From Puniceicoccales bacterium (GTDB taxonomy: Bacteria > Verrucomicrobiota > Verrucomicrobiia > Opitutales > JAIRLM01): a DNA stretch of 64,000 bases. The notes beneath the pieces were generated by a model, which worked only from the letters and a program-made list of their open reading frames with translations, was not told where the DNA came from and made no database searches. The DNA lies in the NCBI GenBank assembly GCA_031290195.1, contig JAITOA010000044.1, positions 256-64,255 of the forward strand, given 5' to 3'. This document shows, piece by piece, positions 46,691-56,214 of the stretch. Within the stretch, counting starts at the first letter, position 1, and every line of letters begins with the position of its first letter. Made by a program: the position numbers and the translations under genes.

Positions 46691-47488
46691 GTGAAAAATT
46701 ATCTGGCCGTGCTGGCCGATGTTTTGGAGCGCGGAGAACAATGCTGCGACCGCACGGGCGTTGGGACCCGTAATCTCTTCGGTGCTCAGCTACGCTTCGA
46801 TCTGACCGCCGGGTTTCCCCTTATGACGACGAAAAGGATCCACTGGAAATCGGTTGTCCATGAATTGCTTTGGTTTCTCCGTGGGTCCACCAATGTTCGC
46901 TATCTGCAGGAAAACGGCGTGCGCATCTGGAACGAGTGGGCCGACGAAAATGGCGAATTGGGTCCCGTCTACGGCAAGCAATGGAGGCGGTGGCAAACGG
47001 TCGACGGCCGGGAAGTGGACCAAATTGCCCAGCTAATTCAAAATTTAAAGGCAAATCCTTTTAGTCGTCGACACTTAATATCTGCTTGGAACGTGGGAGA
47101 AATTGGGCAAATGGCCCTGCCGCCTTGCCATTGTTTTTTCCAATTTCACGTCTCCTCCTCCGGGGATCTCCGCTGCCAACTCTATCAGCGTAGCGCCGAC
47201 ATGTTCCTCGGCGTACCTTTTAACGTCGCCAGCTACTCCCTCATCACCCATATGGTTGCCCATATCTGCGGATTGCGCGCCAAGGAATTCATCCACACGC
47301 TCGGAGACTACCACATCTACAATAGCCATTTGGAACAGGTCCGAGAGCAGCTGGACAGGGAGCCGCGGAACCTTCCAAGTTTGAAAATTGTCCAAAACCG
47401 CCAAGACATCGATGACTTTTGCTTCGATGACTTTGAACTTTCCGGCTACAATCCCCACGGCGCCATTGCTGCTAGGGTCGCCGTGTAA
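46691..47488 (+). CDS. thyA: Thymidylate synthase (ThyA type)
   Basis: [19 protein letters not shown] (catalytic Cys present), [14 protein letters not shown] and [12 protein letters not shown] start. No folA adjacent. Confidence 0.92.
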
Positions 47489-50838: not shown

Positions 50839-51310
50839 CGGACTAAACGTTCTCCACGGAAGCGCACAATTTTCCGAATATCTACCTCATAACCTTTTCG
50901 GAGCCATGGAAAAATTGCTCCACCTTCTCTTTTCATTGCTTAGTTCCCCGGATCTGCAGGTGGTCATCGTCTACGACGGAGGAGCCAGGGGGCAATTTCC
51001 CGAGGCGGAAACGCTACACCACCGGCTCTCCATCATCCGCACTGGGGCTGGCAAATCGGCCGATGAAACTATCCTAAAAATTTTAAGCCGCATCAAAAAT
51101 TTACGAAAAGATGCTCGCATCTTCCTGGCAAGTAACGACGGAGGGCTGCGGACCGCAGCGGCGGCCCTTGGAGGAGAATTGCTTACCGTGGAGGAGCTGC
51201 TGGAACGGGTTCGCCTGCACTCCGCAGGAATGGAGGAGCGTCTTCGCCGATCGGAGCAGCAATGGACCAACCGCCTCGGCAATCATCCGGGGTTGAATTT
51301 GGATAAATGA
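50813..51310 (+). CDS. NYN/PIN-like domain protein (YacP-like predicted RNase)
   Basis: FLLVDGLNVLHGS, VVIVYDGG and LASNDGGL. Its 5' end overlaps cca by about 20-26 nt, and its stop overlaps the next ATG (ATGA). Confidence 0.65.
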   Translation: MPVRFLLVDGLNVLHGSAQFSEYLPHNLFGAMEKLLHLLFSLLSSPDLQVVIVYDGGARGQFPEAETLHHRLSIIRTGAGKSADETILKILSRIKNLRKDARIFLASNDGGLRTAAAALGGELLTVEELLERVRLHSAGMEERLRRSEQQWTNRLGNHPGLNLDK

Positions 51311-53895
51311 TCGAAAAATATCCCATTGCCAGCCGGCAGCGGTGTGACTACCCAAAGTTCATGGAAAGGGAAATATGGGTGCGGAGGCGTAACCGGCAGG
51401 TGGTGCCCTGGCAGCGAGGAAAAATCGAAATTGCCATCCGAAAGGCGCTTCTGGCGGAAAAAGGCTCCGAAGATGGGGCGGCTGCCGTTGCGGACGCGGT
51501 GGAGCGGGAAATTTTTTCCCGCGGCATTTCCCCCGTTGACATCGAAACCATCCAGGATGCCGTGCAGGATGCGTTGCTGGCCTCCGGAGAAGAAAACATA
51601 GCCCTCTCCTATGCGACCTACCGACGCCGACGCCGGGAAGGAAGGGAGGATAGTGAGTCCAAAACTTCCCAGCAGACGCTAACCTTTGTTCACCATCCGG
51701 ACGGCACGGTGCGCTGCTGGACCGATGAACTGTGGTTGGAGCGGATCGGAGTCGCCGCCCGGGGGCTCAATCTTCCCGAAAAATCCGAGGAACTCATTGC
51801 GGTTCTGCGGCGGGGCGTAGGTGACGGTCCTACGGCAGAGGAACTGCGAAAAATGGTCCTCTCCAACGCCCTCCGCAGAGCAAAAACTGATCCCTCCTAT
51901 GGCCGTTTCGCGGCTGGTCTTGGACTGCAATTTTCCTACGAGGAAGTGCTGGGCTATGATGTCCAGGTCACTAATTCCAACGCCGTGGCAATGGAGCAAA
52001 AAAGCTATTTTCTCCGCTACATAAAAGACGCTACGGCAAATGCACTCTTGGACCACCGCCTGGAAAATTTCAACGTGGGAGTCCTCGCCAACGCTCTGGA
52101 CATCAGCCGTGACACCCTTCTTGACTGGTCCGCCTTCGACTTGCTTTCCGAAGAATTTCTCCTCCGTAGCCATGGTCATCCCATGGAAACGCCCCAAATA
52201 TTTTGGATGCGGGTTGCCATGGGAATTTTCATCGGTGACGCCGGTCGCGGAGAAAACCATGTCCTGGAACTCTACGATGCCCTCAGCCGTCTGGAATTTT
52301 GCCCCGCTTCCACCACTCTCCTCTACGCCGGAACTCCAAACCAACAGCTTCTCCCGAGTTACGTTTATGTGCTGCGGGATACGATGGAGGACATCATGGT
52401 CCGCGGCATCGCGGAAAATGCCTTTGCATCCCGGTGGGGTGCGGGGCTTTGCGGTTCTTGGTCCCACATTCGCGGAAAAGATTCCGAAATTGGCGGCTCC
52501 AGGGGCGTATCCGAGGGCATAGAACCCTTTTTGCAACTTCATCGGCACCAGCTGGCAATCGCTAACCAGGGATCTCACCGGCGGCGGGGAGCCGGCTGTG
52601 CTACCCTGGACCTTTGGCACTGGGATTTAGAAACATTCATCGAGCTGCGTCGAAAAATGGTAAAATTCTGCCATGGCTCCTGTGAACCGGAACTGCGAAC
52701 CTGCCTGTGGGTCCCTGATCTTTTCATGGAGAGGCTCGAGGAAAAGGACGGCTACTGGACTCTTTTCCAGCCAATGGACGTACCGGGCCTTGCAGGACTC
52801 TGGGGGGTAGCCTTTGAGGAAAATTACTTGGCCGCAGAGGCCCTTGCCGTCCGAGGAAAAATTTGTTCCCGCCAATTTCCCATCCAGGAACTTTGGAAGA
52901 AGATTCTCGCCCTTGCCTTTGAAACGGGTTTTCCGACACTGGCTTTCAAGGATACGTTTAATCGTAGCCACTACCTCGCCCTTAAAAAATACATCCCCGC
53001 ATCCAGCCTTTTCGGAGAGATGGCCATGGCGGCGAATTTTTCGGAAACGGCCGCCGGAGCATTCGGAACCATTTCCCTGCTGGCTCACTCCTCCCCAACG
53101 GGGACCGTGGACCGGGAAAAATTTCGCGGCACCATTCGCCTGGCCATGGAGGCCCTGGACAGCATTCTTTCGGTGAGCACATTTCCGTCGGAGTCCATCG
53201 CACGTCACTGCGACTACTATCGGGGACTTTGTCTCGGCCTGGCCGGACTGCACGATGTTCTGCGCCGACGGGGACTTCCCTTCGATTCCCCGGAGGCGGA
53301 ACGGGAAGCAGAGACCATCTTCGGTGAACTTTCCGATGAAACAAAAAAGGTATCGGAGAGTCTGGCTAGGCAGCTGGGTCCCTGCGGTGCGGACCCCATC
53401 CTCCGCAATGCCTACCGCACCGTCGGCACGGCCAATACGCGAACCGCCAAGCTTCTCGGCGTTTTTCCAGGAGCCTGTCCGGCCGTCCGCAACGGTCACT
53501 CCGTTTCTATGCCGGATGGGAACAGGGTGTGGATCCTGGACGCATTCCTCGCGGATACCCTAAAAGCTAGAAATCTATGGCGGGACGACCTCGGCGAACG
53601 GCTGAATCACATGGAAGGTGACGTTGCGGCATTTCCCGAATTGCCGGAGGACCTGCGAGCTATCTTTGCGACGGCCTTTGACTGCAATCCGGAGCGGCTA
53701 CTCGCCATTGCCGCCGGCATTCAAAGGCAAATTGACCAGTCCCAGGCCCTTCCCCTCCGACTCCGCATGCCCACCCTCTCCCAACTCTCTTCGCTCATGG
53801 TCCTTGCCTGGAAATTGGGCATCAAGTCCATTGGTCCCACGCTGACCGCCCAGTCCCTTGCCAGCGAACGGGCACGGGAAAAATTTAGCCCCTAG
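51307..53895 (+). CDS. Ribonucleotide reductase large-subunit homologue with an N-terminal ATP-cone; catalytic Cys/Asn/Tyr residues all substituted (predicted pseudoenzyme)
   Basis: Collinear with RNR alpha throughout: ATP-cone VRRRNRQVVPWQRGKIEIAIRKAL; ...QGSHRRRGAGCATLDLWHWDLETFIELRR; TLFQPMDVPGL; YRGLCLGLAGLHDVL; QIDQSQ. However, the finger-loop SNLCLEI/SNPCGE position reads SSLFGEM (Phe569, 53011-53013), the SSC position reads PSY (Tyr352, 52360-52362), the ALCTLS position reads AFGTIS, and the C-terminal YY position reads GP. Confidence 0.75.
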   Translation: MIEKYPIASRQRCDYPKFMEREIWVRRRNRQVVPWQRGKIEIAIRKALLAEKGSEDGAAAVADAVEREIFSRGISPVDIETIQDAVQDALLASGEENIALSYATYRRRRREGREDSESKTSQQTLTFVHHPDGTVRCWTDELWLERIGVAARGLNLPEKSEELIAVLRRGVGDGPTAEELRKMVLSNALRRAKTDPSYGRFAAGLGLQFSYEEVLGYDVQVTNSNAVAMEQKSYFLRYIKDATANALLDHRLENFNVGVLANALDISRDTLLDWSAFDLLSEEFLLRSHGHPMETPQIFWMRVAMGIFIGDAGRGENHVLELYDALSRLEFCPASTTLLYAGTPNQQLLPSYVYVLRDTMEDIMVRGIAENAFASRWGAGLCGSWSHIRGKDSEIGGSRGVSEGIEPFLQLHRHQLAIANQGSHRRRGAGCATLDLWHWDLETFIELRRKMVKFCHGSCEPELRTCLWVPDLFMERLEEKDGYWTLFQPMDVPGLAGLWGVAFEENYLAAEALAVRGKICSRQFPIQELWKKILALAFETGFPTLAFKDTFNRSHYLALKKYIPASSLFGEMAMAANFSETAAGAFGTISLLAHSSPTGTVDREKFRGTIRLAMEALDSILSVSTFPSESIARHCDYYRGLCLGLAGLHDVLRRRGLPFDSPEAEREAETIFGELSDETKKVSESLARQLGPCGADPILRNAYRTVGTANTRTAKLLGVFPGACPAVRNGHSVSMPDGNRVWILDAFLADTLKARNLWRDDLGERLNHMEGDVAAFPELPEDLRAIFATAFDCNPERLLAIAAGIQRQIDQSQALPLRLRMPTLSQLSSLMVLAWKLGIKSIGPTLTAQSLASERAREKFSP

Positions 53896-54027: not shown

Positions 54028-54996
54028 ATGAGGGTGCTGGTCATTGGGGGCGCAGGATATCTCGGAAGCCACGTGGTTCGGCGCCTGCTAGCCAACGACG
54101 TGGAAGTGTCCGTAATCGACAATTTTTCCACCGGACAGAGGGATTCGCTACCAAAGGCGGTTCCCATTTTTTCCTGTGATGCCGGATTGATCATCGGCCT
54201 TGAAGACGTCCTGAAAAAAAATGCCTTCGACGTGGCCATCCACTGCGCCGGGCTCAACGGCATTGGTCGTTCTTTGGAATTTCCCTTCCACTACTACCAC
54301 AACAATTTCGTCGCCACCTACTATCTGCTGCAGACCCTCATTAGGCATAGGGTGCAGAAATTTCTCTTTTCCTCGGATTTTTCTGTCTATGGTCCGCAGG
54401 TAGTCTGCCCCATCGAGGGCAAAACGCCGAAGCGGCCCTGGACCCCTCTCGGCCGTTCCCTGGTGGCCGTCGAAGAGTTGCTGAAGGATTTGACAGAAGC
54501 TAATGGGTTGCACCATGCAATTTTGCGCGTAGGAAACATTGCCGGAGCTGACCCGAGCAGTGTGCCCAAAATTTCCCCTGGTTCCGGTTTCAGTCGGCTG
54601 CTGGCGACAATTTTCGAAGTGGCACAGGGAAAGAAAGAAGTTTTGCCCATCCACGGATCAAAGTTGCCTACGGAGGATGGTACGCCAATGAGGGACTACG
54701 TCCACGTAGTTGACGTGGCCGATGCCTACGTCAAGGCAATCAAAACAACTGGCCTAGAAAACGGAGCAGAACTTCTTTTGGGAACCGGAAGACCCTCCTC
54801 CGTGCTGGAGGTCGTTGCAATGGCCGGCAACGTTGTCCACAGGAGCATAGCCACGGAGGCCGCTGAACCGCGAAAATGGGAACCGGCGAGCACCTTTGCG
54901 GATCCCAGTACCACGGCGCATAGCATCGGCTGGTTCCCCACCAGAGGCCTTAGGGAAATCGTTGAAAGTTCCTGGCGGGCAATAAACATCCAATGA
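54028..54996 (+). CDS. UDP-glucose 4-epimerase (GalE) homologue lacking the SDR Ser/Tyr/Lys catalytic triad
   Basis: GalE-like end to end: MRVLVIGGAGYLGSH, IHCAGL, YYHNN, RDYVHVVDVADA, LGTGRPSSVLEVV, ADPSTTAHSIGW. The SSSATVYG position reads SSDFSVYG (Asp117, 54376-54378). The PYGxSK position reads PLGRSL (Leu141 at 54448-54450; Leu145 at 54460-54462). Confidence 0.75.
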   Translation: MRVLVIGGAGYLGSHVVRRLLANDVEVSVIDNFSTGQRDSLPKAVPIFSCDAGLIIGLEDVLKKNAFDVAIHCAGLNGIGRSLEFPFHYYHNNFVATYYLLQTLIRHRVQKFLFSSDFSVYGPQVVCPIEGKTPKRPWTPLGRSLVAVEELLKDLTEANGLHHAILRVGNIAGADPSSVPKISPGSGFSRLLATIFEVAQGKKEVLPIHGSKLPTEDGTPMRDYVHVVDVADAYVKAIKTTGLENGAELLLGTGRPSSVLEVVAMAGNVVHRSIATEAAEPRKWEPASTFADPSTTAHSIGWFPTRGLREIVESSWRAINIQ

Positions 54997-55080: not shown

Positions 55081-56214
55081 ATGATCCACAGCCGCCACAT
55101 CTTCGGTCAGGTTTTCTGGGCCTCTCTCTGGTTCACCCTTTTTTTTGTGGGAATTTTACTGCTAGGGAACATATTGCGGGACGTGCTCCAGCTAGTCGTC
55201 GCGGGACAGATGGATCAAAAATTTTTCCTGCGGACGCTACTTTCTCTAGTTCCATCGGTTTTTTCCTACGCTCTCCCCGTCGGCGTACTAGCCGCGGTCC
55301 TACTGGTGCTTGGACGCATGGCGGCTTCCAATGAAATTTTGGCTCTTCAGACAGCCGGAATATCGATGGCGCGCATTGTCGGTCCCGTTTTTCTTTTGTC
55401 CGCACTCGGAGGTGTTGCCGCTCTATCCGTCAATTTCTTCTATGGTCCCCACGCCCTCCACGCCTATCGCCGGAGCATCCACTCCATTGTCCGGGAAGAT
55501 CCTCTCCGTTTCGTCCGGCCCCGGCAATTTATCAGGGATTTTCCAGGCCATGTCCTCTACGCCGGCGGACGGGATGGCGATTCACTCACTAATTTGCATA
55601 TCTGGCAATTTGACAGGCAACAGAATCTCACTGGCTTTCTCCATGCCCAGAGGGGAAAATTTTCTAAATCTGCCGTCGATGGCTCCCTGCGACTGGATCT
55701 ACGTCGCGGAACTCTGGAAAGGCCGGGACAGGAAAATGGGGATGCTCTGCTGCATTTCCGAGATTTTTCTCTCCTGCTGGCGACGGAGCAGTTCCTCGCC
55801 GAAAGGGATGGTGACCAAAGGCGACTAAAATACATGGATCTGGGGGAACTGTTGGTAACTCGACCCGTCCGGCCGGCGGGGGCGGCAGCGGGGACGGACA
55901 ATTCTTTGTCGCGGTGGCGCGGGGAAGTCATTTTGGTCGACTTCATGATCCAGCAGCACCTTGCGATGGCAGCTTCCGTCTGCACCTTTTCCATTTTGGG
56001 GATTCCAATTGCCCTGCGCATGCGGCGGACAGAAACCTCCATTGGCATCGTGCTGGCCCTTTTTCTTGCCCTTGGGTACTATTTTGCCACGGCTATTATC
56101 TCGTGGATGCAGACAACTCCCCATTGTCGTCCCGACTTGCTTATTTGGCTGCCGAATTTGGTAATTTTGACCGTCGGAACACTCCTGCTATGGCGCCAAT
56201 CGCAGCCGCGATGA
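55081..56214 (+). CDS. LptF/LptG-family (YjgP/YjgQ) LPS export permease
   Basis: 377 aa with three N-terminal TMs, a periplasmic beta-jellyroll-sized loop, and three C-terminal TMs. The family-typical N-terminus is present. Confidence 0.75.
   Translation: MIHSRHIFGQVFWASLWFTLFFVGILLLGNILRDVLQLVVAGQMDQKFFLRTLLSLVPSVFSYALPVGVLAAVLLVLGRMAASNEILALQTAGISMARIVGPVFLLSALGGVAALSVNFFYGPHALHAYRRSIHSIVREDPLRFVRPRQFIRDFPGHVLYAGGRDGDSLTNLHIWQFDRQQNLTGFLHAQRGKFSKSAVDGSLRLDLRRGTLERPGQENGDALLHFRDFSLLLATEQFLAERDGDQRRLKYMDLGELLVTRPVRPAGAAAGTDNSLSRWRGEVILVDFMIQQHLAMAASVCTFSILGIPIALRMRRTETSIGIVLALFLALGYYFATAIISWMQTTPHCRPDLLIWLPNLVILTVGTLLLWRQSQPR

What the first reader, a model, noticed from the sequence alone, without database searches (positions are those of the whole stretch)
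54028..54996. GalE homologue with the Ser-Tyr-Lys catalytic triad replaced by Asp-Leu-Leu, directly downstream of the dead RNR
Seen in the sequence: the 322-aa protein matches UDP-glucose 4-epimerase block by block.
- The Rossmann motif GGAGYLGSH is retained.
- Also retained are IHCAGL, YYHNN, FSS..VYG, RDYVHVVDVADA, LGTGR..SVLEVV and ADPS...GW.
- The three residues that define extended-SDR catalysis (E. coli GalE S124, Y149, K153) read D117, L141 and L145. The motifs are SSDFSVYG and TPLGRSLVAVEE, in place of SSSATVYG and SPYGKSKLMVEQ.

Established knowledge: the YxxxK motif and the upstream Ser are essential for hydride transfer in SDR epimerases and dehydratases. 'Atypical' SDRs that lack them, such as NmrA-type proteins, act as NAD(P)-binding regulators.

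Inference: this is probably a non-catalytic dinucleotide or sugar-nucleotide binding protein.

Two adjacent, co-oriented, otherwise well-conserved genes each lacking their active site is unusual.
Basis: partly seen in the sequence, partly recalled or inferred. Interest (0 to 1): 0.62.

Follow-up and report, generated by a model that had tools for sequence, protein, structure and literature searches.

The report
Conserved catalytically dead GalE-like protein
This gene encodes a sugar-epimerase look-alike that has lost all three catalytic residues yet has been kept intact by selection in a group of termite-gut bacteria, so it is a repurposed "pseudoenzyme" of unknown role rather than a broken gene or a working GalE.

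Summary
ORF 54028-54996 (+, 322 aa) aligns end to end with UDP-glucose 4-epimerase (E. coli GalE E=1e-49; model TM 0.94), and S124/Y149/K153 read D117/L141/L145.

It is not a one-off or a decaying gene. It belongs to a monophyletic clade (100% bootstrap) of 17 aligned proteins. All lack Lys and all but one lack Tyr. Where the source is known, they come from Puniceicoccales MAGs from guts of kalotermitid termites. Members diverge to about 36% identity, ORFs are intact, and dN/dS is 0.06-0.3.

Constraint has been redistributed:
- The adenosine/pyrophosphate half of the NAD site is as conserved as in real GalEs.
- The UDP-clamping residues are released across the clade, although this protein keeps most of them.
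- One face of a dimer-interface helix is more conserved than in real GalEs.

Best reading: a non-catalytic, probably NAD-holding, dimeric SDR-fold protein that acts through protein contacts, perhaps linked to envelope biogenesis. The role is inferred, not shown.

The neighbouring RNR is also truly dead and has its own conserved clade in this lineage, but the adjacency occurs only in this genome. GalE triad loss arose independently at least twice elsewhere. Moderately interesting: a new variant of the known non-enzymatic SDR theme.

The parts
54028..54996 (+). CDS of the GalE-derived pseudoenzyme (322 aa)
   Evidence: ORF. Full-length homology to GalE. GalE fold. Member of a conserved dead-triad clade. 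dN/dS 0.06-0.3.
54046..54072 (+). Codons for GGAGYLGSH (residues 7-15), the GxxGxxG dinucleotide-binding motif
   Evidence: Position. G7, G10, Y11 and G13 are invariant in every clade member that covers the region. The adenosine/PPi site class is as conserved as in active GalEs.
54283..54345 (+). Codons for helix residues 86-106 (PFHYYHNNFVATYYLLQTL...), equivalent to E. coli GalE ~93-113, one of the two dimer-interface helices; more conserved in the clade than in real GalEs
   Evidence: Helix 86-106 in the model. Conservation 0.81 vs 0.59, P<5e-5. The clade-specific residues F87, H91, F94, V95, Y99 and Q102 lie within a 140-degree arc of the helical wheel. The four-helix-bundle dimer interface of GalE is described in PMC6668579.
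54376..54378 (+). Codon for D117, at the position of catalytic Ser124
   Evidence: This column is D or N in 10 of the 17 aligned clade members, S in 6 and G in 1.
54448..54450 (+). Codon for L141, at the position of the catalytic base Tyr149
   Evidence: This column is L, Q or S in every clade member and never Y.
54460..54462 (+). Codon for L145, at the position of Lys153
   Evidence: This column is L, I, M, Q or D in every clade member and never K.
51307..53895 (+). Context only: upstream co-oriented RNR alpha-like gene with an ATP cone, also catalytically dead; not a conserved partner
   Evidence: Pfam and NCBIfam hits. Catalytic cysteines lost. Forms its own Puniceicoccales-only clade. Not adjacent to the GalE-like gene in any other locus.
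55081..56214 (+). Context only: downstream co-oriented LptF (LPS export permease), 84 bp after the GalE-like stop
   Evidence: PF03739 5.4e-56 and TIGR04407. It is one of several envelope-biogenesis neighbours seen across clade loci.

Best explanation
The gene encodes a GalE-derived pseudoenzyme. The protein keeps the whole extended-SDR/GalE fold but can no longer carry out the NAD-dependent oxidation-reduction that defines epimerases. The catalytic base (Tyr149) and the lysine that activates it and holds the nicotinamide ribose (Lys153) are both leucine, and the assisting serine is aspartate.

The protein is kept by purifying selection in a lineage of Puniceicoccales bacteria. Where the source is known, they come from guts of lower termites. 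A published study of these MAGs treats related small-genome termite Opitutales as probable symbionts of gut flagellates.

Most likely mechanism (inferred):
- It still holds an adenine dinucleotide. This would be NAD(H) bound mainly through its ADP half, either as a structural ligand or as a sensed one.
- It forms the usual four-helix-bundle dimer, or uses that same surface to bind another protein.
- It acts non-enzymatically as a regulator or scaffold, in the way NmrA, NMRAL1 and MAT2B use the SDR fold.
- The process it serves may be cell-envelope biogenesis, judging from recurrent neighbours.

Shown here: homology, fold, loss of the triad across the clade, selection, and the redistribution of constraint. 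Inferred: ligand binding, dimerisation or partner binding, and the cellular role.
For: 1. Homology and fold.
2. Triad loss is a clade property. Of the 17 aligned members (P0001-P0012 without the truncated P0006, plus P0121-P0124, P0157 and P0159), none has Lys153 or Tyr149. The clade is monophyletic in 200/200 bootstrap replicates with the triad columns removed.
3. Selection: all 12 CDSs examined are intact. Pairwise dN/dS is 0.06-0.3 for most pairs, with synonymous sites saturated. Overall column conservation equals that of active GalEs (0.60 vs 0.63). The window is 90% coding, so this is not a decaying genome region.
4. Redistributed constraint:
- Adenosine/PPi/glycine-motif positions: 0.80 vs 0.81 in active GalEs.
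- UDP clamps: 0.48 vs 0.96 (P<5e-5).
- Nicotinamide-side residues are relaxed.
- The C-terminal substrate domain is relaxed (0.54 vs 0.63).
- Helix 94-112 gains conservation (0.81 vs 0.59, P<5e-5), with the new invariant residues on one helix face.
- Contact lists and the helix-bundle interface were checked against PMC6668579.
5. Precedent: non-enzymatic NAD(P)(H)-binding SDR-fold proteins are an established category (PMC2792337). GalE proteins denature irreversibly without NAD (PMC6668579), which gives a reason to keep the ADP-binding half.
6. Envelope hint:
- Immediate co-oriented neighbours are LptF (window), MraY (L004), MurA (L087) and FtsW/RodA (L015).
- A MurA-family (EPSP_synthase) gene lies one gene further upstream in L090.
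- LptF with LpxL, MurJ and LptD lie within about 4 kb elsewhere.
Against: - No ligand binding, oligomeric state or partner has been measured or modelled, and coordinates of the model could not be inspected.
- Lys84, Tyr149, Lys153, Tyr177 and Phe178 contact NAD in real GalEs and are all lost, so NAD affinity may be much reduced or changed.
- The envelope association is a post-hoc category. It is absent from about five loci (L005, L006, L010, L011, L016), and no single partner gene is conserved.
- The helix conservation could reflect homodimer packing only.
- SDR enzymes with non-canonical triads (SMK) exist, so triad loss is strong but not absolute evidence of inactivity (PMC2279256).
Confidence: 0.6

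Rival explanations
1. It is a UDP-sugar (and NAD) binding sensor. The dead active site still binds UDP-glucose or UDP-GlcNAc without turning it over, and reports sugar-nucleotide supply to the envelope-synthesis machinery.
For: - This protein and its closest relative P0002 keep N179, L200, R231 and R292, with D295 changed to E.
- The E. coli S124A/Y149F double mutant still crystallises with NAD and UDP-glucose. Those mutant entries (1A9Y, 1A9Z) are among the best PDB matches.
- Neighbours that use UDP-sugars (MurA, MraY) recur.
Against: - Across the clade the UDP clamps are the least conserved site class (0.48 vs 0.96, P<5e-5).
- R231 and R292 occur together only in P0001 and P0002.
- Subgroup B has deleted 8 residues of the loop after F218.
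- A function shared by the whole selected clade therefore cannot depend on UDP binding.
Confidence: 0.15
2. It is an obligate regulatory or stabilising subunit of an active enzyme. It would pair through the conserved helix face with another SDR or an envelope enzyme, as MAT2B does with MAT2A or as dead paralogues do in other pseudoenzyme-enzyme pairs.
For: - The clade-specific, single-face conservation of the interface helix exceeds that in homodimeric active GalEs.
- MAT2B is a precedent for an SDR-fold regulatory subunit (PMC2792337).
Against: - No conserved neighbouring partner gene was found.
- Whether these genomes have a canonical GalE or another candidate SDR partner could not be determined.
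- Conservation of the helix could simply reflect a tighter homodimer.
Confidence: 0.12
3. It is still an enzyme, using a different catalytic apparatus (for example Asp117 or His91) on an unknown substrate.
For: - Asp, or Asn, replaces Ser124 in 10 of the 17 aligned members, and His at E. coli position 98 is invariant in the clade.
- SDRs with altered triads are known (PMC2279256).
Against: - Both Tyr and Lys are replaced by aliphatic residues.
- No conserved Tyr or Lys is displaced into the site. Arg143 sits two residues from L141 on the helix and so points away, and Tyr99 is two turns from the cofactor (inference from helix geometry).
- Asp117 is not conserved in subgroup B.
- The substrate-domain pocket residues are the most variable part of the protein.
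Confidence: 0.07
4. It is a decaying relic (pseudogene in progress) in a reduced symbiont genome. Alternatively, it forms a two-gene unit with the dead RNR.
For: - The lineage is described as having small genomes and a probable endosymbiotic lifestyle (PMC11257099).
- Two dead enzymes are adjacent and co-oriented in this window.
Against: - Intact ORFs persist in all members despite divergence to 36% identity. dN/dS is well below 1, and overall conservation equals that of active GalEs.
- The window is 90% coding.
- The RNR-like gene is not next to the GalE-like gene in any of the other loci, including the 59%-identical closest relative.
Confidence: 0.03

Closest known systems
UDP-glucose 4-epimerase GalE (EC 5.1.3.2; TIGR01179; extended SDR, Pfam PF01370)
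   Same: - Full-length homology (34-38% identity).
- Same two-domain fold (TM up to 0.94).
- GxxGxxG motif, the D31 loop, D58 and N99 of the NAD adenosine site.
- The two long helices that form the dimer interface.
   Different: - The S/T-Y-K triad is replaced by D-L-L.
- K84, Y177 and F178 are lost, with F178 changed to Gly in nearly all members.
- The UDP clamps are not conserved in the clade.
- The score falls below the TIGR01179 trusted cutoff.
- The protein descends from a GalE but does not meet the definition of one.
Non-enzymatic NAD(P)(H)-binding SDR-fold proteins: NmrA, NMRAL1/HSCARG, CC3/TIP30, MAT2B
   Same: - Rossmann/SDR fold with a retained dinucleotide motif.
- The classical active-site residues are missing.
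- They act by protein-protein interaction, with nucleotide binding as a sensor or structural element (PMC2792337; PMC2279256). This is the kind of mechanism proposed here.
   Different: - No specific sequence relationship. The clade gives no PF05368 (NmrA) hit, whereas active GalEs do give weak ones.
- It is an independent, recent derivation from GalE, restricted to one bacterial lineage.
- Neither a partner nor ligand binding is known.
Other dead-triad GalE homologues found here: the Isoptericola group (P0074, P0080, P0082, P0208) and Caldichromatium japonicum WP_166269193.1 (P0267) with P0101
   Same: - GalE homologues that have lost Tyr149 and Lys153.
- The Isoptericola group even has the same Leu/Leu pair in the motif PLGRSL.
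   Different: - They have independent origins. They never (Isoptericola) or rarely (6%, Caldichromatium) group with this clade in bootstrap trees.
- They keep RxFN-like and RDY motifs and lack the YYHNNF...YYLLQ helix signature.
- Their public records name them GalE.
E. coli GalE S124A/Y149F engineered mutants (PDB 1A9Y, 1A9Z)
   Same: The same two positions are disabled. These mutants are among the best sequence and structure matches in the PDB. They show that a triad-less GalE can still fold and hold NAD and UDP-sugar.
   Different: They are laboratory mutants that retain Lys153 and all ligand contacts. The natural protein has also lost Lys153, K84, Y177 and F178.

Membership tests
UDP-glucose 4-epimerase GalE (TIGR01179 equivalog) | Full-length sequence homology and the two-domain extended-SDR fold | tested here: met
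   phmmer vs E. coli GalE 1.3e-49 over residues 1-317. Foldseek TM 0.89-0.94 to GalE structures.
UDP-glucose 4-epimerase GalE (TIGR01179 equivalog) | Score at or above the curated trusted cutoff of the equivalog model | tested here: not met
   252.2 bits against a cutoff of 262.3.
UDP-glucose 4-epimerase GalE (TIGR01179 equivalog) | Catalytic Ser/Thr-Tyr-Lys triad (E. coli S124, Y149, K153) | tested here: not met
   D117, L141 and L145 in this protein. Lys is absent in all 17 aligned clade members and Tyr in all of them too.
UDP-glucose 4-epimerase GalE (TIGR01179 equivalog) | Conserved UDP-binding residues (N179, L200, R231, R292, D295) | tested here: inconclusive
   This protein keeps N179, L200, R231 and R292, with D295 changed to E. 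Across the clade these are the least conserved class (0.48 vs 0.96 in active GalEs).
UDP-glucose 4-epimerase GalE (TIGR01179 equivalog) | Interconversion of UDP-glucose and UDP-galactose | not testable with these tools
   Needs an enzyme assay on recombinant protein.
Extended SDR / NAD-dependent epimerase-dehydratase (Pfam PF01370) | Domain match above the gathering threshold | tested here: met
   135.9 bits against a cutoff of 20.9, E=2e-39.
Extended SDR / NAD-dependent epimerase-dehydratase (Pfam PF01370) | N-terminal GxxGxxG dinucleotide motif and an acidic residue at the end of strand 2 | tested here: met
   GGAGYLGSH at residues 7-15 and D31. Both are conserved in every member that covers the region.
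Extended SDR / NAD-dependent epimerase-dehydratase (Pfam PF01370) | YxxxK active-site motif | tested here: not met
   LGRSL stands in place of YGKSK.
NmrA-like / non-enzymatic SDR-fold NAD(P)(H) sensors | Sequence membership in the NmrA family (Pfam PF05368) | tested here: not met
   No PF05368 hit at E<=0.01. The precomputed domain lists of P0001-P0012 lack PF05368, whereas many active GalEs list it.
NmrA-like / non-enzymatic SDR-fold NAD(P)(H) sensors | SDR fold with a dinucleotide motif but without the classical catalytic residues | tested here: met
   The category is described in PMC2792337.
NmrA-like / non-enzymatic SDR-fold NAD(P)(H) sensors | Binds NAD(P)(H) without turnover and regulates a protein partner | not testable with these tools
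   Needs binding assays and interaction studies. Only indirect support exists: a conserved adenosine site and a conserved helix face.
Pseudogene / decaying relic | Disrupted reading frames or neutral evolution (dN/dS near 1) in relatives | tested here: not met
   12 of 12 CDSs are intact. dN/dS is 0.06-0.3 for most pairs, with a maximum of 0.52.

The most novel reading that the evidence does not exclude
In this putatively endosymbiotic termite-gut lineage, several core metabolic enzymes (at least GalE and the RNR alpha subunit) have been converted into ligand-sensing, non-catalytic regulators. The dead GalE would sense NAD(H), and in some members UDP-sugar, to tune peptidoglycan/LPS synthesis. 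The dead ATP-cone RNR would sense (d)ATP. This would be a programme of enzyme-to-sensor exaptation accompanying dependence on host metabolites.
Probability: 0.1. Interest if true: 0.7.

Novelty: new variant of a known kind. Interest (0 to 1): 0.45.

Why it matters
- Annotation: JGI labels this protein as UDP-glucose 4-epimerase. The public records for the independently derived dead homologues from Isoptericola and Caldichromatium name them GalE. Metabolic reconstructions of these symbiont genomes would therefore wrongly credit them with galactose/UDP-sugar interconversion.
- Biology: it adds a clean, selection-supported case of a GalE-derived pseudoenzyme family. A second one, a dead RNR alpha, exists in the same lineage. 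It also shows that loss of the GalE triad has happened repeatedly in bacteria. That makes GalE a tractable system for asking what SDR scaffolds are reused for.
- Open lead: if the link to envelope biogenesis or nucleotide sensing were confirmed, it would show how reduced symbiont genomes regulate cell-wall synthesis.
- Limit: on present evidence the function is unknown, and non-catalytic SDR-fold proteins are already a recognised category. The finding is solid but not a major surprise.

Tried and rejected
1. A conserved operon partner. All-against-all BLAST of neighbours across 12 loci found none. The RNR adjacency is unique to the window.
2. Whether a canonical galE co-exists in the same genomes.
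- The window has no second copy (tblastn).
- No Verrucomicrobial canonical seed could be identified among the best canonical hits.
- This question stays unresolved.
3. Positional orthology with canonical GalE. The closest TYK-triad relatives of the basal member P0124 lie in exopolysaccharide clusters, not in the murA/SBP_bac_5 slot. Nothing could be shown either way.
4. JGI metagenome scan for more clade members. The termite metagenomes appear not to be in that collection.
5. Promoter and terminator scan around the gene. It found fewer sites than in shuffled sequence, so it was uninformative.
6. Family and genome size of the specific MAG bins. The stored supplement of PMC11257099 is cut off before Verrucomicrobiota.
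7. Literature search for a described GalE pseudoenzyme. Nothing relevant was found.
8. The Caldichromatium neighbour epimerase as a canonical GalE paralogue. It is a GDP-fucose-synthase-type SDR, so this was rejected.
9. The first bootstrap attempt timed out and was redone with vectorised distances.
Full report
**1. The observation**

The window holds an ATG-initiated ORF at 54028-54996 (+) of 322 aa.

It matches the Pfam epimerase/dehydratase domain (PF01370, 2e-39) and the GalE equivalog model TIGR01179 (5.7e-75). Its 252.2 bits fall just under that model's trusted cutoff of 262.3.

The best solved relatives are E. coli GalE chains, with E=1.3e-49 and residues 1-317 aligned to 1-327. In that alignment:
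- FSSDFSVYG lies under FSSSATVYG.
- TPLGRSLVAVEE lies under SPYGKSKLMVEQ.
- So S124, Y149 and K153 correspond to D117, L141 and L145.

An AlphaFold2 model built on 12 relatives is confident (pLDDT 84.5, pTM 0.87). It superposes on GalE crystal structures with TM 0.89-0.94.

**2. Not a singleton and not decay**

A search of 5.8 billion proteins found a distinct group, P0001-P0012. They are 36-59% identical to the query. Every named member comes from 'Puniceicoccales bacterium' MAGs. Ordinary GalEs begin at about 38% identity.

In a joint alignment none of these proteins has Tyr at position 149 (they have L, Q or S) and none has Lys at 153 (L, I, M or Q). Ser124 is Asp or Asn in one subgroup and Ser in another.

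An exhaustive profile search of 1.84 billion representatives showed a sharp score gap. Five representatives score above 360 bits and everything else is at or below 272 bits.

Reading the triad columns in all 269 proteins collected added three distant members, P0124, P0157 and P0159. That gives 17 aligned members; P0006, a truncated 273-aa entry that also reads DLL, was left out.

With the triad columns excluded, the 17-member clade is monophyletic in 200 of 200 NJ bootstrap replicates.

All 12 coding sequences examined are intact. Pairwise Nei-Gojobori dN/dS is 0.06-0.3 for most pairs (maximum 0.52). Synonymous sites are saturated, so omega is if anything overestimated.

Mean column conservation in the clade (0.60) equals that of equal-sized samples of active GalEs (0.63). 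The window is about 90% coding. This is a maintained protein, not a relic.

**3. Where it lives**

In the GTDB species-representative collection the clade occurs in ten MAGs, all 'Puniceicoccales bacterium'. Their isolate codes are Nm470, Iy174, Roe453, Cc175, Gsp477 and Pcl387.

The supplement of Mies et al. 2024 identifies these codes as gut metagenomes of kalotermitid lower termites. The hosts are Neotermes meruensis, Incisitermes snyderi, Roisinitermes ebogoensis, Cryptotermes cavifrons, Glyptotermes sp. and Procryptotermes leewardensis.

That paper describes a large clade of small-genome, putatively endosymbiotic termite Opitutales (families LL51 and UBA9783). The clade includes the endonuclear Candidatus Nucleococcus (PMC11257099).

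That our bins belong to those families could not be verified, because the stored table is truncated.

A scan of JGI metagenomes from other environments returned only ordinary GalEs. The three distant members come from other sequencing runs of unknown origin.

**4. What is still constrained and what is not**

Ligand-contact lists were checked against the Bifidobacterium GalE structure paper (PMC6668579). Conservation was compared between the clade and active GalEs, with permutation tests.

| Site class | Clade | Active GalEs | Result |
|---|---|---|---|
| Glycine motif, D31-S36 loop, D58/I59, N99 (adenosine and pyrophosphate side of NAD) | 0.80 | 0.81 | unchanged |
| Nicotinamide-side and catalytic positions | 0.67 | 0.86 | relaxed, P=0.009 |
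| UDP clamps (N179, L200, R231, R291/R292, D295) | 0.48 | 0.96 | strongly relaxed, P<5e-5 |
| C-terminal substrate domain | 0.54 | 0.63 | relaxed |
| Helix at E. coli 94-112 | 0.81 | 0.59 | more conserved, P<5e-5 |

Other points:
- F178 has become Gly in nearly all members.
- Subgroup B has deleted eight residues of the loop after F218.
- The helix at 94-112 is one of the two helices of the GalE four-helix-bundle dimer interface.
- The residues that are newly invariant on it are F87, H91, F94, V95, Y99 and Q102 in this protein. They all fall within a 140-degree arc of the helical wheel, so they form one face.
- The window's own protein and its closest relative P0002 still have N179, L200, R231 and R292, with D295 changed to E. 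UDP binding therefore cannot be excluded for them, but it cannot be the function shared by the clade.
- No conserved Tyr or Lys is displaced into the site. The only conserved basic residue on the catalytic helix (R143) is two positions from L141 and so points away (inference from helix geometry).

**5. Genomic context**

In the window the gene lies between the RNR-like gene (132 bp upstream) and lptF (84 bp downstream). All are on the + strand, in a run of housekeeping genes: ThrRS, LpxD, GpsA, ThyA, AspRS, CCA-adding enzyme, YacP and SucCD.

Promoter and terminator scans were uninformative.

Across the other loci no neighbour is conserved, and the RNR-like gene is never adjacent.

Envelope-biogenesis genes do recur:
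- MraY immediately upstream in L004.
- MurA 12 bp upstream in L087. A MurA-family gene sits one gene further upstream in L090.
- FtsW/RodA immediately downstream in L015.
- LptD in L013 and L015.
- MurJ in L003.
- LptF, LpxL and a GT2 gene in L001.

The three distant members share the order murA-(dciA)-galE*-SBP_bac_5-acetyl-CoA hydrolase-SurA.

By a rough estimate, if about 3.5% of genes are peptidoglycan or LPS genes, 0.8 of 22 flanking slots would be expected to hold one, and 4 were seen. The category was chosen after seeing the data, and five loci show nothing of the kind. This is a lead, not a result.

**6. The neighbouring RNR**

The 862-aa neighbour has an ATP cone and an RNR barrel but scores below all NCBIfam cutoffs.

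It belongs to its own Puniceicoccales-only clade of 44-60% identity and about 870 aa. Canonical Opitutales NrdA is at 33-36% identity and about 1085 aa.

All 12 members examined have lost the following:
- Cys225.
- Asn437 and Cys439 (SNLCTE reads SSLFGE).
- The Cys462 motif.
- The C-terminal CxxC tail.

So the lineage maintains two independent pseudoenzyme families. Their adjacency here is incidental.

**7. Recurrence elsewhere**

Dead-triad GalE homologues also exist in two other groups:
- An Isoptericola group (P0074, P0080, P0082, P0208), which even has Leu/Leu in the motif PLGRSL.
- Caldichromatium japonicum WP_166269193.1 (P0267) together with P0101, with Gln/Ala.

Neither group clusters with the termite clade (0% and 6% of bootstrap replicates). 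The GalE triad has therefore been lost at least three times. The public records for these proteins name them GalE.

**8. Interpretation**

Established knowledge:
- Tyr149 is the catalytic base.
- Lys153 lowers its pKa and holds the nicotinamide ribose.
- Ser124 assists. Mutagenesis supporting these roles is cited in PMC6668579.
- SMK-triad SDR enzymes exist, so loss of Tyr alone is not conclusive (PMC2279256). Here Lys is gone as well, and both replacements are aliphatic.

The most economical reading is a non-catalytic protein with these properties:
- It retains the ADP-binding half of the cofactor site. This may be needed simply for folding, since GalEs denature without NAD. It may also serve as a redox or nucleotide sensor.
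- It has a newly constrained protein-protein interface on the dimerisation helix.

This places it, by mode of action, with the recognised non-enzymatic SDR-fold proteins NmrA, NMRAL1, CC3/TIP30 and MAT2B (PMC2792337). It is not a sequence member of the NmrA family, as there is no PF05368 hit.

Alternatives are a UDP-sugar sensor (possible only for this sub-branch), an obligate partner subunit of an active enzyme, a cryptic new enzymatic activity, or decay. They are ranked in the rival explanations.

Not established:
- Ligand binding.
- Oligomeric state.
- Any binding partner.
- Cellular role.
- Whether a canonical GalE co-exists in these genomes.

**9. Verdict**

- Non-catalytic and probably dinucleotide-binding: yes.
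- Sugar-nucleotide binding as a family trait: no.
- A functional pairing with the dead RNR: no.

It is a new, lineage-specific variant of a known kind of protein. It has practical relevance for annotation and moderate biological interest.

Noticed in passing
window 51307-53895 (+): The RNR alpha-like neighbour is one of a Puniceicoccales-only clade (P0273-P0286, 44-60% identity, about 870 aa with an ATP cone). All 12 members checked lack Cys225, Cys439, the Cys462 motif and the C-terminal CxxC tail. This makes it a second selection-maintained pseudoenzyme in the lineage, perhaps an ATP/dATP-binding regulator. An intact ThyA lies at 46691-47488.
   Followed up: partly
P0074/P0080/P0082/P0208 (Isoptericola spp. 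and relatives; L089) and P0267/P0101 (Caldichromatium japonicum WP_166269193.1; L088 7001-8002): These are independently derived GalE homologues that lack Tyr149 and Lys153 (S-L-L/H and S-Q-A). Their public records name them 'UDP-glucose 4-epimerase GalE', which is probably a misannotation. It also shows that GalE triad loss is recurrent.
   Followed up: partly
L087 1082-3346; L090 129-3041; L091 956-4145: The three most divergent clade members share the gene order murA-(dciA)-dead galE-SBP_bac_5-acetyl-CoA hydrolase-SurA. This may be the ancestral location of the gene.
   Followed up: partly
window 20173-23676 (+): Three tandem paralogous ORFs of 351, 364 and 349 aa (27-29% identical to each other) have no Pfam family. 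They lie in a low-GC patch (0.43 against about 0.54 for the window). They could be a lineage-specific expanded family or an acquired island.
   Followed up: partly
window 9099-11102 (+), 33947-35770 (+), 56279-58195 (-): A patatin-like phospholipase domain protein (667 aa) and two large orphan proteins (607 and 638 aa, no Pfam or NCBIfam hit) are present. The first two lie in lower-GC stretches. Proteins of this sort are often host-interaction factors in intracellular bacteria.
   Followed up: no
window 54028-54996: Annotation is inconsistent between sources for the same protein. JGI calls it 'UDP-glucose 4-epimerase', while NCBI calls it 'NAD-dependent epimerase/dehydratase family protein'. 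The TIGR01179 score is 10 bits below the cutoff.
   Followed up: yes
L004 8001-9125 (P0009); L009 1237-2376; L010 3502-4638: Several clade members are annotated, or read as ORFs, with long N-terminal extensions upstream of the conserved MR(A/V)L(V/I)xGGAGY start. These are probably mis-called start codons rather than real extensions.
   Followed up: no
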